Of a stretch of DNA of 64,000 nt, positions 1 to 2,615 are shown piece by piece. Both the position numbers and the translations under genes were made by a program. This stretch comes from Shigella phage vB_SdyM_006, in the sequence record MK295204. One strand, given 5' to 3'. A model generated the notes under the pieces. The model was not told the DNA's origin, made no database searches, and saw only the letters and a list, made by a program, of their open reading frames with translations. Within the stretch, counting starts at the first letter, position 1. The number at the start of each line of letters is the position of its first letter.

Positions 1-112
1 TATCAAATTCTTCATTACCTAAACCAGTTAGGCTAATTCCATCGATACTAATATTCCATTGTCCAAAGCATAGCGTTGGATAAGACCCAGTCCACTCTAC
101 AAAAATTTTCAT
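1..112 (-). CDS. hypothetical protein, partial (start codon at 110-112, runs off the window edge)
   Basis: Open minus-strand frame from ATG at 110-112 to position 1 (MKIFVEWTGSYPTLCFGQWNISIDG...); not in the ORF track because it is truncated. Confidence 0.35.
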   Translation of the reverse strand, partial: MKIFVEWTGSYPTLCFGQWNISIDGISLTGLGNEEFD

Positions 113-230
113 GTAATTCCTTATAAACATACCACAATTGCAGTTAAAAATATAAAAACCATAACAGGAACATACCAAATGGTTTTTATAGCATCATTAG
201 GTTTTTCTGAGTCAAACATGATAATCTCGA

Positions 231-584
231 TTAATAATAAATAGTATTCCCAACATAAATTTTGTTTGGATTTGTAATATTATTTAAAATTTGTAAATAT
301 TCAACAGACACGCCAAGGTTCATAGCAATTTCGCTCAGTGTGTCATTAAATCGTACTGTATATGAAAATAAATTTGAATCACGATTAATTGACGCAGTTA
401 AAAAATCAACAGAATTCAGAACTTCAAAAGTCATCGCTTTGTCGTTGCCACTATTAAAGCCAATACCACGCTTAAGAATAGAAACGATAGTTGTACCTTC
501 ACCTGTTTCAGAAGCACCGATGATGTTACGTGTATCAACCATAAAACGTGATAAATCATCTGCAGAAGTTAAAATAATTTTCAT
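231..584 (-). CDS. LysM-domain protein (putative peptidoglycan-binding)
   Basis: C-terminal ~45 aa fit the LysM pattern (YTVRFNDTLSEIAMNLGVSVEYLQILNNITNPNKIYVGNTIY); no signal peptide. Confidence 0.6.
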   Translation of the reverse strand: MKIILTSADDLSRFMVDTRNIIGASETGEGTTIVSILKRGIGFNSGNDKAMTFEVLNSVDFLTASINRDSNLFSYTVRFNDTLSEIAMNLGVSVEYLQILNNITNPNKIYVGNTIYY

Positions 585-593
585 AGTATTTCC

Positions 594-986
594 TTACCAA
601 GAATAAGCAAAACCTGCACCAAGAGTAGAATTAGATTTGTTATCAAATGCACCAGACATTTTTAATGTTACATTTGTGTTTTCTGGATGAGCACCAAAAG
701 CGACAGCTACAGCTGAACCAGATTTATAACCACCAACACCTAAGCCTAAAGAAATGGTTTTAGAAAAATCTAATGGAACATTATTCATAGCAGAAGCAGA
801 AGCAAATCCAGCTTTTACTTGGTCCATTTTTCCGTCAACATCTTTAATATATCTATTCCAGGATTCATTTACAGTTCCTTCGTGAAAAGTATGATTAAGA
901 TTTGGACTAATCCAATTATTATCTGATGCAATTGAACCAGAACTCAAAACTAATAATGAAGCCATAAAAATAAATTTTAAATTCAT
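594..986 (-). CDS. secreted protein with YadA-like (trimeric autotransporter) C-terminal membrane-anchor domain
   Basis: N-terminal signal peptide (MNLKFIFMASLLVLSSGSIA); C-terminal alternating beta-strand pattern ending ...GAGFAYSW, like TAA anchors that end in Y-x-W. Confidence 0.5.
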   Translation of the reverse strand: MNLKFIFMASLLVLSSGSIASDNNWISPNLNHTFHEGTVNESWNRYIKDVDGKMDQVKAGFASASAMNNVPLDFSKTISLGLGVGGYKSGSAVAVAFGAHPENTNVTLKMSGAFDNKSNSTLGAGFAYSW

Positions 987-1127
987 AATTTTTTCCTTGT
1001 TTGTTTAAAGTAGAAACACTATATCATAGATTATATAAAAGCTAAATTTCTTTTATTTTAAAAACAAAAAAGGTCCAACATTTCTGTGGACCTTAAAAGC
1101 AACTTCTTTTATTATTTATTTTAAATT

Positions 1128-1726: not shown

Positions 1727-1919
1727 TTAAAAATGTACCCATCCGGCTTTCCAGTCTGGTGAAGGGTTGTCACCTCTAGTTTAAACCTGCTAGTCAAGTA
1801 ATAATTGCATATCGTCCAATTATCAAAACCGTCTAGGTTATATTACACCACTTCCTAGAATACCGTCTAAGCGGACTTGATCGACGTAGATTACACCATA
1901 TACGTCTGATTGTGGAATT

Positions 1920-1994
1920 TGGAGCGATCTACGGGTATCGAACCCGTATCTTCTGGGTGGAAACCAGAAATAATAGCCATTATACTAAGATCGC
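1920..1994 (-). tRNA. tRNA-Gly (anticodon UCC)
   Basis: Perfect acceptor stem GCGATCT/AGATCGC, anticodon loop TTTCCAC, T-loop TTCGATA, CCA encoded. Confidence 0.85.
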
Positions 1995-2615
1995 ATATTT
2001 ATTAATAAATCTTCTTGCTTGGGTATGACTTAATCCTATATGTTTAGCAAATTTATTTAAGTTACCTCTTATTGAAATATCAAATGATTTTAATATTTCT
2101 AATCTATAATTAATTTCGTCTTTTGACAATGTAGAGGCATTATTAATAGAAATTTTGTTTTTAGATATATCCGAATGTCTCTTATTTTTAAAACCAAACG
2201 AATTTTTCTTTTTGCTAAAATCATATAATCCGAGTCTAAGTCTTTTCTTAAATGTATTAACTTGTTTACTTATAGTTAATTTAGATTTTGGCAATGAATT
2301 TATATAATCCCAACCACCTTCACCACCAACTTTTAAATTATATGTATTTTTGCTTTTAACAAATTTTTCTGTAACTATTTTGGCTTCATGTATAAACATG
2401 TCATACTTATTTTTATGAAATTTTAAAATAGTTTTTTCAAAATTTTCTTTGCCATATTTTTCTATGGCTTTTTTCAAAATCTTACCTGAACCAAAATATC
2501 CATCTTCTAAATCTTTGGTTTTATGAACACCTATATAAATTTTATTATTTATTTTATTTTTAATTTTGTATGTATAATAAAACATTATAGCCTTATTTAT
2601 CTTTTGGTACTCCAT
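1980..2615 (-). CDS. GIY-YIG homing endonuclease (Seg-like) embedded in the tRNA cluster
   Basis: N-terminal GIY-YIG motif (FYYTYKIKNKINNKIYIGV...GSG), basic C-terminal region; T4 segB sits in the equivalent tRNA region; 3' end overlaps tRNA-Gly by 15 nt. Confidence 0.6.
   Translation of the reverse strand: MEYQKINKAIMFYYTYKIKNKINNKIYIGVHKTKDLEDGYFGSGKILKKAIEKYGKENFEKTILKFHKNKYDMFIHEAKIVTEKFVKSKNTYNLKVGGEGGWDYINSLPKSKLTISKQVNTFKKRLRLGLYDFSKKKNSFGFKNKRHSDISKNKISINNASTLSKDEINYRLEILKSFDISIRGNLNKFAKHIGLSHTQARRFINKYAILV

What the first reader, a model, noticed from the sequence alone, without database searches (positions are those of the whole stretch)
594..986. Phage-encoded mini trimeric-autotransporter-like protein (signal peptide + YadA-type anchor)
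The 130-aa product has a cleavable-looking signal peptide and a C-terminal ~70 aa with the alternating hydrophobic beta-strand pattern and terminal ...GAGFAYSW characteristic of YadA-like anchors, which trimerise into a 12-stranded outer-membrane barrel. A short coiled-coil-like segment precedes it. A phage-made outer-membrane trimer could act in superinfection exclusion, receptor masking or envelope remodelling.
Basis: partly seen in the sequence, partly recalled or inferred. Interest (0 to 1): 0.65.

Follow-up and report, generated by a model that had tools for sequence, protein, structure and literature searches.

The report
Phage-encoded minimal trimeric autotransporter anchor
A T4-like Proteus phage carries a real 130-residue gene for a stripped-down "anchor-only" trimeric autotransporter that should insert into the outer membrane of the infected cell; such YadA-anchor genes are already annotated in many phages, but none from a lytic phage has a known function.

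Summary
Window 594-986 (minus strand) encodes a 130-aa protein made of three parts:
- a Sec-type signal peptide;
- a roughly 30-residue N-terminal cap followed by a 33-residue helix;
- a four-strand YadA-type anchor.

Support for the anchor: Pfam PF03895 at 47.3 bits against a cutoff of 22.7, and an AF2 model whose only significant PDB matches are the Hia, AtaA and YadA anchors.

The window is a Bragavirus (Straboviridae), about 98% identical to Proteus phage phiP4-3. The gene there is 100% identical and labelled "hypothetical protein".

The gene is under purifying selection (dN/dS 0.21 against PM2). Its composition matches the phage (GC 32%). It behaves as a single-ORF cassette:
- upstream of a LysM gene in the window, phiP4-3 and PM2;
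- downstream of that gene, as a 44%-identical allele, in Pm5461;
- absent from SJ_PmiM.

At least 89 phage records carry a match to a YadA-anchor ORF. Papers from 2013 and 2017 already noted such genes in lytic phages.

The kind is known (new member). The function is open.

My best guess is an early or middle-expressed surface-remodelling protein that excludes superinfecting phage or shields receptors. This is inferred, not shown.

Interest is moderate.

The parts
594..986 (-). Mini-TAA coding sequence (130 aa plus stop). It corresponds to KNT81_gp267 of Proteus phage phiP4-3, at 100% identity.
927..986 (-). Codons 1-20: Sec-type signal peptide MNLKFIFMASLLVLSSGSIA. The predicted cleavage is SIA|S. 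There is no lipobox.
   Evidence: hydropathy; aligned AMA|S in PM2; manual -3/-1 rule
831..926 (-). Codons 21-52: the whole 'passenger'. It is a roughly 15-residue N-terminal tail followed by the start of the helix. It carries the subfamily motif D-N/D-x-W ... [YFW]-H-x-G-T-V-x-E (W25, H35, G37, T38, V39, E41). It is predicted to be surface-exposed.
   Evidence: among 159 proteins fetched, 157 of them homologues or cluster relatives, the motif occurs only in the seven 130-146-aa mini proteins; helix starts at residue 36; residues 16-27 and 31-34 have low pLDDT
762..830 (-). Codons 53-75: pore-traversing helix and linker (KMDQVKAGFASASAMNNVPLDFS). It aligns with the YadA segment ...VDKGLASSAALNSL...
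597..761 (-). Codons 76-130: four beta-strands (78-87, 90-99, 106-115, 120-128) of the YadA_anchor domain. The C-terminal beta-signal-like sequence is F-A-Y-S-W-COOH.
994..998 (-). Shine-Dalgarno AAGGA, 7 nt upstream of the ATG.
   Evidence: conserved
1018..1047 (-). Promoter-like region. It has an extended -10 (TGaTATAGT, 1026-1018) preceded by ATTTAGCTTTTA (1047-1036). At the same position PM2 and Pm5461 have TTGCTTTA, which matches the T4 MotA-box core as I recall it. There is no TATAAATA late-promoter motif here.
   Evidence: the T4 promoter consensus is from my own knowledge; function is inferred
1058..1094 (-). Intrinsic-terminator-like hairpin (1094-1070) plus U-tract (1069-1058), downstream of tRNA-Glu. 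It is invariant in four Bragavirus genomes and separates the tRNA cluster from the TAA transcription unit.
   Evidence: (dG -13.9 kcal/mol, z -3.35)
231..584 (-). Downstream co-oriented gene, with 9 nt between the TAA stop and its ATG. It encodes a 117-aa protein with a C-terminal LysM domain and no signal peptide. It is conserved in relatives that lack the TAA, so it is a neighbour and not a demonstrated partner.
121..219 (-). Next co-oriented ORF: a 32-aa single-TM peptide (MFDSEKPNDAIKTIWYVPVMVFIFLTAIVVCL). It is conserved in PM2, SJ_PmiM and Pm5461.

Best explanation
The gene encodes a minimal type Vc (trimeric) autotransporter made by a lytic T4-like Proteus phage.

Proposed course of events:
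1. It is transcribed from its own promoter-like region, just after the terminator that closes the tRNA cluster. It lies on the strand that carries the tRNAs and replication genes, with no T4-type late promoter upstream. Timing is therefore probably early or middle (inferred).
2. The pre-protein is exported by Sec and cleaved after Ala20 (inferred from sequence).
3. BAM inserts it into the host outer membrane, using the C-terminal ...FAYSW signal (inferred by homology).
4. Three protomers each give four strands to a 12-stranded barrel. Their helices (residues about 36-68) run through the pore as a coiled coil. The fold is shown at monomer level; the trimer is inferred from Hia, YadA and AtaA.
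5. Only about 30 residues per chain reach the surface. They form a small trimeric cap with a conserved W...HxGTVxE motif. There is no head or stalk, so the protein cannot be a long-range adhesin.

The gene is a dispensable accessory cassette that has been gained repeatedly. I therefore think it most likely remodels the surface of the infected cell for the phage's benefit. My preferred role is to hinder secondary adsorption, either by excluding superinfecting phages or by shielding receptors so that progeny are not lost on debris. T5 Llp is a functional analogue of that role.

Confidence by layer: about 0.9 for the molecular identity and topology, about 0.3 for the exclusion or shielding role.
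For: Identity
- Pfam YadA_anchor, 47.3 bits.
- PDB sequence hit to 2LME.
- AF2 with a 67-sequence alignment gives pLDDT 87-98 over residues 40-130, with helix 36-68 and four strands.
- The only significant Foldseek PDB hits are TAA anchors: 3EMO, 9VNJ, 2GR7, 2GR8 and 2LME. E-values are 5.5e-6 to 5.3e-4, and the next hit has E 0.57.
- The invariant family columns A66, P71 and G125 are retained.

Export
- Signal-peptide features are present and there is no Cys.

Real and selected
- dN/dS is 0.21 against PM2, and the cap is as conserved as the barrel, with pN 0.12.
- Gene GC is 32.3% against 31.9% for the window, and GC3 is 13.7%.

Accessory cassette
- Insertions are ORF-precise on either side of the LysM gene, and SJ_PmiM has none.
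- Mini-TAAs sit in or next to the tRNA cluster in Mm5, phiR1-RT and CGG4-1.
- In Serratia T4-like phages, the 6.5-kb region that holds the YadA-anchor ORF145 can be deleted without loss of viability (PMC5449768).

Phage-restricted subfamily
- Every context recovered for motif-bearing homologues is a phage contig.

Expression unit
- A conserved terminator is followed by an extended -10.
- The gene is co-oriented with the tRNA, ligase and helicase genes and opposite to the head and tail genes.
- The nearest TATAAATA on this strand is more than 2 kb upstream.
Against: - No experiment or expression data exist for this gene or any lytic-phage homologue. Literature searches found none.
- Trimerisation, outer-membrane insertion and surface exposure are inferred by homology only.
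It would have to bind a specific receptor or be very abundant.
- T4-like phages normally already have inner-membrane or periplasmic exclusion functions (Imm and Sp in T4, from my own knowledge).
- The pore-facing position that is Gly in at least 90% of family members is Ala96 here. I recall this position as YadA G389.
- The promoter assignment is weak. The simple sigma-70 scan did not list it, and MotA-box-type patterns are not clearly enriched in the window: 6 found against 2.5 expected, and 5 of 100 shuffles reached 6.
- The passengers of other T4-like mini-TAAs (phiR1-RT g139, CGG4-1 gp256) lack the cap motif. A common function may therefore lie in the anchor and not the cap.
Confidence: 0.55

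Rival explanations
1. It keeps the classical TAA function in miniature. The trimeric cap and short coiled coil would mediate self-association or adhesion. Infected cells would then clump with neighbours or stick to surfaces, which raises local host density at burst.
For: Longer phage homologues carry adhesin-type passengers and are annotated as agglutinating adhesins. Examples are phiEco32 gp119 with collagen-like GxY repeats, SKML-39 at 470 aa and Yoloswag at 742 aa. TAA stalks and heads are known to drive autoagglutination (my own knowledge, and cited in PMC3728262). The cap motif is conserved.
Against: No head, neck or stalk domain is detected even at E <= 10. I estimate that about 14 helical residues plus a roughly 15-residue low-confidence tail emerge from the barrel. 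That is probably too short to clear the LPS layer (inference).
Confidence: 0.15
2. It acts inside the envelope, on its own or with the adjacent LysM protein and 32-aa membrane peptide. It would serve as an outer-membrane to peptidoglycan tether or as a lysis or lysis-timing accessory. The closest precedents are the AtaA-TpgA complex and the spanins.
For: The four ORFs are tightly packed and co-oriented: TAA, then 9 nt, then LysM, then the 32-aa TM peptide, then the gp265 homologue. LysM is a peptidoglycan-binding domain. A solved structure shows a TAA anchor bound to a periplasmic partner (9VNJ).
Against: The LysM protein has no signal peptide, and its start cannot be extended because an in-frame stop lies 9 nt upstream. 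It shows no sequence similarity to the 9VNJ partner. LysM and the peptide are conserved without the TAA in SJ_PmiM and in Providencia and Morganella phages. The TAA occurs without LysM in Mm5, phiR1-RT and CGG4-1. The mini-TAA has no periplasmic domain and no lipobox. SJ_PmiM is a viable lytic phage without it.
Confidence: 0.08
3. It is a virion component, a tail protein or adhesin, as the RefSeq and PHROG labels on its homologues say.
For: PHROG 17426 'adhesin' and PHROG 26246 'tail protein' match it at E 1.6e-17 and 1.3e-11. RefSeq labels phiEco32 gp119, the Privateer homologue and others 'tail protein'.
Against: A cleavable Sec signal plus a membrane beta-barrel anchor is incompatible with cytoplasmic virion assembly (established knowledge). 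The gene lies in the tRNA accessory region on the non-structural strand. phiEco32 gp119 sits among small hypothetical genes. The FSL SP-058 and SP-076 genes are not near tail genes (PMC3728262). The labels appear to be propagated from the word 'adhesin'.
Confidence: 0.03
4. It has no adaptive role. It would be a decaying remnant of a captured host TAA, or a selfish passenger of the hyperplastic tRNA region.
For: The gene is dispensable and patchily distributed. It lies in a region with homing endonucleases and high gene turnover. The closest cellular anchors are from Morganellaceae, namely Providencia and Xenorhabdus, at 32-41% identity.
Against: It is under purifying selection, with dN/dS 0.21. 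The signal peptide, cap motif and anchor are intact across homologues that are 27-68% identical. Its composition is fully ameliorated. Two diverged alleles were inserted independently within one genus. Phage TAA-anchor genes are widespread: 89 records and 18 BFVD clusters.
Confidence: 0.1

Closest known systems
Membrane-anchor domains of the bacterial trimeric autotransporter adhesins YadA (2LME), Hia (2GR7, 2GR8, 3EMO) and AtaA (9VNJ)
   Same: Same Pfam domain (PF03895). Same protomer fold: one pore helix plus four beta-strands, at rmsd 1.2-2.1 A and TM-score up to 0.91 on the target. It shares GVGGY and the A-rich pore-helix sequence with YadA. It has an N-terminal Sec signal and ends in an aromatic residue.
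   Different: The bacterial proteins carry hundreds to thousands of passenger residues (head, neck, stalk). This protein has about 30. It is encoded by a strictly lytic phage. The family's conserved pore-facing Gly is Ala96 here.
YadA-anchor ORFs of other T4-like phages: Serratia phage CBH8 ORF145 (also in CHI14 and X20), Yersinia phiR1-RT g139 and TG1, Salmonella CGG4-1 gp256
   Same: All are small (about 90-140 aa) proteins with a signal peptide, a short helix and the anchor. All lie in or beside the tRNA cluster of a Straboviridae genome. ORF145 was reported as a YadA membrane-anchor homologue inside a dispensable 6.5-kb region (PMC5449768).
   Different: They are only 27-33% identical to this protein and lack the W...HxGTVxE cap motif. 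No function is known for any of them.
Longer phage-encoded TAAs: phiEco32 gp119 'agglutinating adhesin', FSL SP-058 and SP-076 YadA homologues, SKML-39, Yoloswag
   Same: They have the same anchor (36-37% identity over residues 36-130). They are also in lytic phages and outside tail modules.
   Different: They carry real passengers. The phiEco32 passenger is built of collagen-like GxY repeats. Sizes range from 265 to 742 aa.
Eib immunoglobulin-binding proteins of lambdoid prophages (P-EibA)
   Same: They are phage-borne TAAs with a homologous anchor (H119).
   Different: They are lysogenic-conversion factors of temperate phages, with large IgG-binding passengers and a role in serum resistance (my own knowledge). 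The present phage is lytic and the passenger is vestigial.
Outer-membrane exclusion proteins of phages, for example T5 Llp and the Cor proteins (functional analogy only)
   Same: They are phage-made, exported to the outer membrane of the infected cell, non-essential and variable. They block the receptor against superinfection and against loss of progeny (my own knowledge).
   Different: Those are lipoproteins with a lipobox Cys. This protein has no Cys and has an integral beta-barrel. No receptor interaction is known for it.

Membership tests
Trimeric autotransporter adhesins (type Vc secretion) | C-terminal YadA_anchor domain (PF03895) scoring above Pfam's gathering threshold | tested here: met
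   47.3 bits against a cutoff of 22.7, E 2.1e-12, residues 76-130 matching profile positions 7-60 of 60
Trimeric autotransporter adhesins (type Vc secretion) | Protomer fold of one pore-traversing alpha-helix followed by four antiparallel beta-strands | tested here: met
   AF2 gives helix 36-68 and strands 78-87, 90-99, 106-115 and 120-128 at pLDDT 87-98. The top five Foldseek PDB hits are all TAA anchors, with probability 1.00.
Trimeric autotransporter adhesins (type Vc secretion) | N-terminal Sec signal peptide | tested here: met
   The n, h and c regions and the SIA|S site were read from the sequence and hydropathy. The feature is conserved in orthologues. No SignalP tool was available.
Trimeric autotransporter adhesins (type Vc secretion) | C-terminal aromatic residue with an alternating hydrophobic beta-signal for BAM | tested here: met
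   The protein ends ...G-F-A-Y-S-W-COOH. All 12 aligned mini-TAAs have W or F at the aligned C-terminal position; in P0008 one extra Arg follows it.
Trimeric autotransporter adhesins (type Vc secretion) | Conserved small pore-facing glycine in strand 2. I recall this as YadA G389, where Ala and Ser substitutions are tolerated and larger residues are not. | tested here: inconclusive
   The column is Gly in at least 90% of 67 sequences, but it is Ala96 here and in Mm5. It is Gly in PM2 and Ser in Pm5461.
Trimeric autotransporter adhesins (type Vc secretion) | Obligate homotrimer forming a 12-stranded outer-membrane barrel | not testable with these tools
   Only monomer prediction was available. 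This needs AlphaFold-Multimer or biochemistry.
Trimeric autotransporter adhesins (type Vc secretion) | Passenger with adhesive head, neck or stalk modules | tested here: not met
   No YadA_head, YadA_stalk or other passenger domain was found at E <= 10. Only about 30 residues lie between the signal cleavage site and the pore helix. It is therefore an anchor-only member of the secretion family, not a demonstrated adhesin.
Phage virion tail or adhesin proteins (the label on PHROG 17426 and 26246 and on RefSeq homologues) | Encoded in the structural module and assembled in the cytoplasm (no secretion signal) | tested here: not met
   A signal peptide is present. The gene lies in the tRNA accessory region, on the opposite strand to the head and tail genes.
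Outer-membrane lipoprotein exclusion factors and o-spanins (Llp, Cor, o-spanin) | Lipobox with an invariant Cys at +1 of the mature protein | tested here: not met
   The protein has no cysteine.
TAA plus periplasmic peptidoglycan-binding partner (AtaA-TpgA type) | The adjacent gene encodes an exported peptidoglycan-binding protein that co-occurs with the TAA | tested here: not met
   The LysM neighbour lacks a signal peptide and has no similarity to the 9VNJ partner. Its presence is uncoupled from that of the TAA.

The most novel reading that the evidence does not exclude
The 130-146-aa, phage-restricted mini-TAAs with the W...HxGTVxE cap would be a new class of phage envelope effector. The phage would send an anchor-only type Vc barrel early to the host outer membrane. 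There it would act as an outer-membrane-level device for superinfection exclusion or receptor shielding. One possible route is binding a host surface component through the trimeric cap. Another is co-assembly with host TAA protomers, which would poison them. This would be the first function assigned to a TAA in a lytic phage, and the first exclusion protein built on an autotransporter scaffold.
Probability: 0.25. Interest if true: 0.65.

Novelty: new member of a known kind. Interest (0 to 1): 0.38.

Why it matters
If the mini-TAA does change adsorption or aggregation of infected cells, three things follow.
- It would give a function to a gene class that recurs in at least 89 phage records, and that databases variously call "hypothetical", "adhesin", "tail protein" or "virulence factor".
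- That matters for safety assessment of phage-therapy candidates against Proteus, Salmonella, Yersinia and E. coli.
- At 110 mature residues it would also be a naturally minimal type Vc autotransporter. That makes it a convenient model for BAM-dependent trimeric barrel assembly and a compact scaffold for surface display.

As it stands it is a correctly recognised but already catalogued domain, with no functional data.

Tried and rejected
1. The first AF2 run, with a 4-sequence alignment, gave pLDDT 44 and was unusable for fold search. I repeated it with 67 sequences.
2. The word-indexed homologue searches returned only 3 and 12 proteins. The exhaustive profile search was needed.
3. I considered a TpgA-like partnership with the adjacent LysM protein, prompted by the 9VNJ hit. 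I rejected it for three reasons: the LysM protein has no signal peptide, it has no sequence similarity to the 9VNJ partner, and it does not co-occur with the TAA.
4. PADLOC defence models gave no hit for the TAA, the LysM protein or the gp265 homologue.
5. Promoter typing was inconclusive.
   - The generic sigma-70 scan did not list the site.
   - The MotA-box pattern is only weakly enriched in the window.
   - TATAAATA is not enriched and is absent upstream of the gene.
   - Expression timing therefore rests on strand orientation and an extended -10.
6. Literature searches for any functional study of TAAs in lytic phages found only genome-annotation remarks. The primary phiR1-RT paper was not in the searchable library.
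8. An anchor HMM run on the window ORFs found no second TAA.
Full report
**What is there**

Window 594-986 holds a 130-aa ORF on the minus strand. The ATG is at 986-984 and the TAA stop at 596-594. An AAGGA ribosome-binding site lies 7 nt upstream.

The N-terminus reads as a classical Sec signal:
- n-region: one Lys in MNLK;
- h-region: the ten-residue core FIFMASLLVL, with a Kyte-Doolittle 9-residue mean up to 2.87;
- c-region: small and polar, with S-I-A|S.

There is no cysteine, so it is not a lipoprotein. The PM2 orthologue has A-M-A|S at the aligned position.

**Family assignment**

Sequence evidence:
- Pfam's YadA_anchor (PF03895) matches residues 76-130 at 47.3 bits, E 2.1e-12, against a gathering score of 22.7. 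No other Pfam domain matches even at E <= 10.
- PHROGs place the protein in phrog_8062 (E 1.4e-43). Weaker matches go to families labelled "adhesin" and "tail protein".
- NCBIfam gives only C-terminal matches to YadA and BimA, far below the cutoffs for those full-length models.
- Against PDB sequences the best hit is the solid-state NMR structure of the YadA anchor, 2LME (E 1.8e-5, residues 53-130). It shares GVGGY and the Ala/Ser-rich pore helix. The Hia anchors come next.
- A profile search of 1.84 billion cluster representatives found 611 proteins at E <= 1e-3. Almost all align through their extreme C-terminus, as expected for TAA anchors.

Structural evidence:
- AF2 with four sequences gave pLDDT 44.
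- With a 67-sequence alignment it gave mean pLDDT 80, and 87-98 over residues 40-130.
- The model has helix 36-68 and strands 78-87, 90-99, 106-115 and 120-128.
- Foldseek against the PDB returned exactly five significant hits, and all are TAA transmembrane domains: Hia 3EMO, 2GR7 and 2GR8, AtaA 9VNJ, and YadA 2LME. Probability is 1.00, rmsd 1.2-2.1 A and target TM-score 0.69-0.91.
- The sixth hit has E 0.57.

One deviation is worth recording. The column that is Gly in at least 90% of the family is Ala96 here. It is Gly in PM2 and Ser in Pm5461. I recall this position as YadA G389, where Ala or Ser is tolerated.

**Genomic setting**

The window is a T4-like Bragavirus (Straboviridae), 98% identical to Proteus phage phiP4-3 over the parts they share. 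The gene is KNT81_gp267, "hypothetical protein", at 100% identity.

Its position in the genome:
- It lies immediately after the tRNA cluster.
- It is co-oriented with the tRNAs, DNA ligase, helicases and RNA ligases.
- It is opposite to the head, sheath and baseplate-wedge genes.

Between tRNA-Glu and the gene there are two elements:
- A hairpin plus U-tract, which is invariant in four Bragavirus genomes (dG -13.9 kcal/mol, z -3.35).
- A promoter-like stretch with an extended -10, TGaTATAGT. At the same position PM2 and Pm5461 have TTGCTTTA, which resembles a T4 MotA box as I recall the consensus.

No TATAAATA late-promoter motif lies within 2 kb upstream on this strand. I therefore infer pre-late expression, but this is weak. 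The generic promoter scan did not list the site, and MotA-type patterns are only marginally enriched in the window.

**A real, selected, mobile cassette**

Selection and composition:
- Against the 67%-identical PM2 orthologue, dN/dS is 0.21.
- The cap (pN 0.12), the helix (0.10) and the barrel (0.16) are all constrained. The signal peptide is free to vary.
- Gene GC is 32.3% against 31.9% for the window, and GC3 is 13.7%. It is not a recent capture.

Three arrangements occur within the one genus:
- SJ_PmiM has promoter, LysM gene, 32-aa peptide gene and gp265 homologue, with no TAA.
- The window, phiP4-3 and PM2 have the TAA ORF inserted exactly between the shared RBS and the LysM start. The RBS and start context is duplicated at the junction.
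- Pm5461 and a metagenomic relative carry a 44%-identical allele inserted exactly between the LysM stop and the peptide ORF.

That amounts to two independent ORF-precise acquisitions plus a natural null.

Elsewhere in Straboviridae, small proteins with a signal peptide and an anchor sit in or next to the tRNA region. Examples are Morganella Mm5, Yersinia phiR1-RT and TG1, and Salmonella CGG4-1. Homologues in the Serratia, Erwinia, Kosakonia and Edwardsiella phages hit at similar genome coordinates of about 72-75 kb.

**A distinct subfamily**

Seven clusters of 130-146 aa share the cap motif: D-D/N-x-W, then 8-13 residues, then [YFW]-H-x-G-T-V-x-E, at the N-terminus of the helix. These are the window/P0001, PM2, Mm5/P0003, Pm5461/P0004, P0005, P0006 and P0008.

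Every context recovered for this subfamily is a phage:
- T4-like contigs;
- one contig with a large terminase and an SU10-type portal.

The nearest cellular anchors are chromosomal TAAs of Morganellaceae (Providencia, Xenorhabdus), at only 32-41% identity.

**How common and how known**

- tblastn finds a match to a YadA-anchor ORF in at least 89 phage records. These include Kuravirus phiEco32 ("agglutinating adhesin"), FSL SP-058 and SP-076, Privateer-like Proteus phages, jumbo phages (Yoloswag and the PHA46/Munch group), a Stx phage and prophage P-EibA. A further jumbo phage, GAP32, matched the window protein itself.
- BFVD holds 18 viral clusters with this fold, from 90 to 1261 aa.
- No classical E. 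coli T4-type phage appeared. The Escherichia hits listed are phiEco32-like (Kuravirus) phages, a 95-kb phage (ECML-606-1) and a Stx phage.
- UniRef already names the PM2 protein as a TAA-anchor-containing protein.
- Moreno Switt et al. 2013 reported yadA homologues in lytic Salmonella phages that are not near tail genes (PMC3728262).
- Chen et al. 2017 reported ORF145, a YadA membrane-anchor homologue. It lies in a 6.5-kb region adjacent to the tRNA genes of Serratia T4-like phages, and deleting that region gives escape from ToxIN (PMC5449768).
- I found no functional study of any lytic-phage TAA.

**Mechanism**

Shown:
- the ORF and its conservation;
- the signal-peptide features;
- the anchor domain and the monomer fold;
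- the cassette behaviour;
- the genomic orientation.

Inferred by homology to Hia, YadA and AtaA:
- Sec export;
- BAM insertion through the ...FAYSW terminus;
- trimerisation into a 12-strand barrel with three helices in the pore;
- exposure of the N-terminus at the cell surface.

The helix is 33 residues long. About the last 18 should be inside the barrel. So only about 14 helical residues plus a roughly 15-residue tail would emerge per chain (the geometry is my estimate). This is a cap and not a fibre, so long-range adhesion is unlikely.

The protein is a dispensable, variable, outer-membrane-targeted product that has been gained repeatedly. It sits on the early-gene strand of a lytic phage. 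That profile best fits a surface-remodelling or exclusion function, with T5 Llp as a functional analogue. I put that at about 0.3.

Rivals:
- miniature aggregation or adhesion (0.15);
- an envelope or lysis accessory working with the LysM neighbour (0.08), weakened because LysM lacks a signal peptide and does not co-occur with the TAA;
- a functionless hitchhiker (0.10), weakened by selection and repeated gain;
- a virion tail protein (0.03), contradicted by the secretion signal and the gene's location.

**Verdict**

The protein belongs to the type Vc secretion family through its anchor, but it fails the "adhesive passenger" criterion. It should be called an anchor-only mini-TAA and not an adhesin.

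It is a new member of a known and already annotated kind. The function is open and readily testable. Interest is moderate.

Noticed in passing
window 1727-1919 (-): A non-coding segment of about 190 nt fits exactly between tRNA-Gly and tRNA-Asp. It is about 87% identical to segments in 121Q-like jumbo E. coli and Salmonella phages, and in Morganella phage Mm5, where it abuts the mini-TAA gene and tRNA-Glu. It is absent from phiP4-3, where the two tRNAs are 3 nt apart, and PM2 and Pm5461 have a gap of about 200 nt at the same position. It has no Rfam match, and its fold z-score is only -1.7. It may be a stable RNA processed from the tRNA precursor (compare T4 rnaC and rnaD, from my own knowledge) or a small mobile element.
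   Followed up: partly
window 1980-2615 (-): A 211-aa SegE-type GIY-YIG homing endonuclease (PF19835, 26.5 bits) sits inside the tRNA cluster. At this site phiP4-3 instead has a small membrane protein, tRNA-Pro and a hypothetical gene. The window lacks tRNA-Pro. This is one of the differences behind the 70% coverage against phiP4-3.
   Followed up: partly
window 231-584 (-): A 117-aa protein has an unknown N-terminal domain plus a C-terminal LysM domain (41.6 bits) and no signal peptide. It is conserved in Bragavirus and in Providencia and Morganella T4-like phages, whether or not the TAA is present. Some records label it 'spore coat assembly'. It is unclear what a cytoplasmic LysM protein does in a phage of a Gram-negative host.
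   Followed up: partly
window 121-219 (-): A 32-aa ORF encodes a single-pass membrane peptide (MFDSEKPNDAIKTIWYVPVMVFIFLTAIVVCL). It is conserved in PM2 (gp086), SJ_PmiM (SJ_187) and Pm5461, where it is present in the DNA but not annotated.
   Followed up: partly
window 1-112 (-), running off the window start: This is the start of a homologue of phiP4-3 gp265, PM2 gp085 and Pm5461 gp116. That protein is about 105-116 aa, and most versions end in SSCGGCI. One metagenomic orthologue has a precomputed Pfam PF27390 (PM0253) hit, but my own Pfam scan of the phiP4-3 sequence found nothing.
   Followed up: no
L017 2491-3288 (phiEco32 phi32_119): The annotated 265-aa 'tail protein/agglutinating adhesin' probably starts at an internal Met (MKAIVLSSILALSVMASPVFA...). 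That gives a signal peptide, collagen-like GxY repeats, a coiled coil and a YadA anchor. It lies among small hypothetical genes, so the 'tail protein' label looks unfounded.
   Followed up: partly
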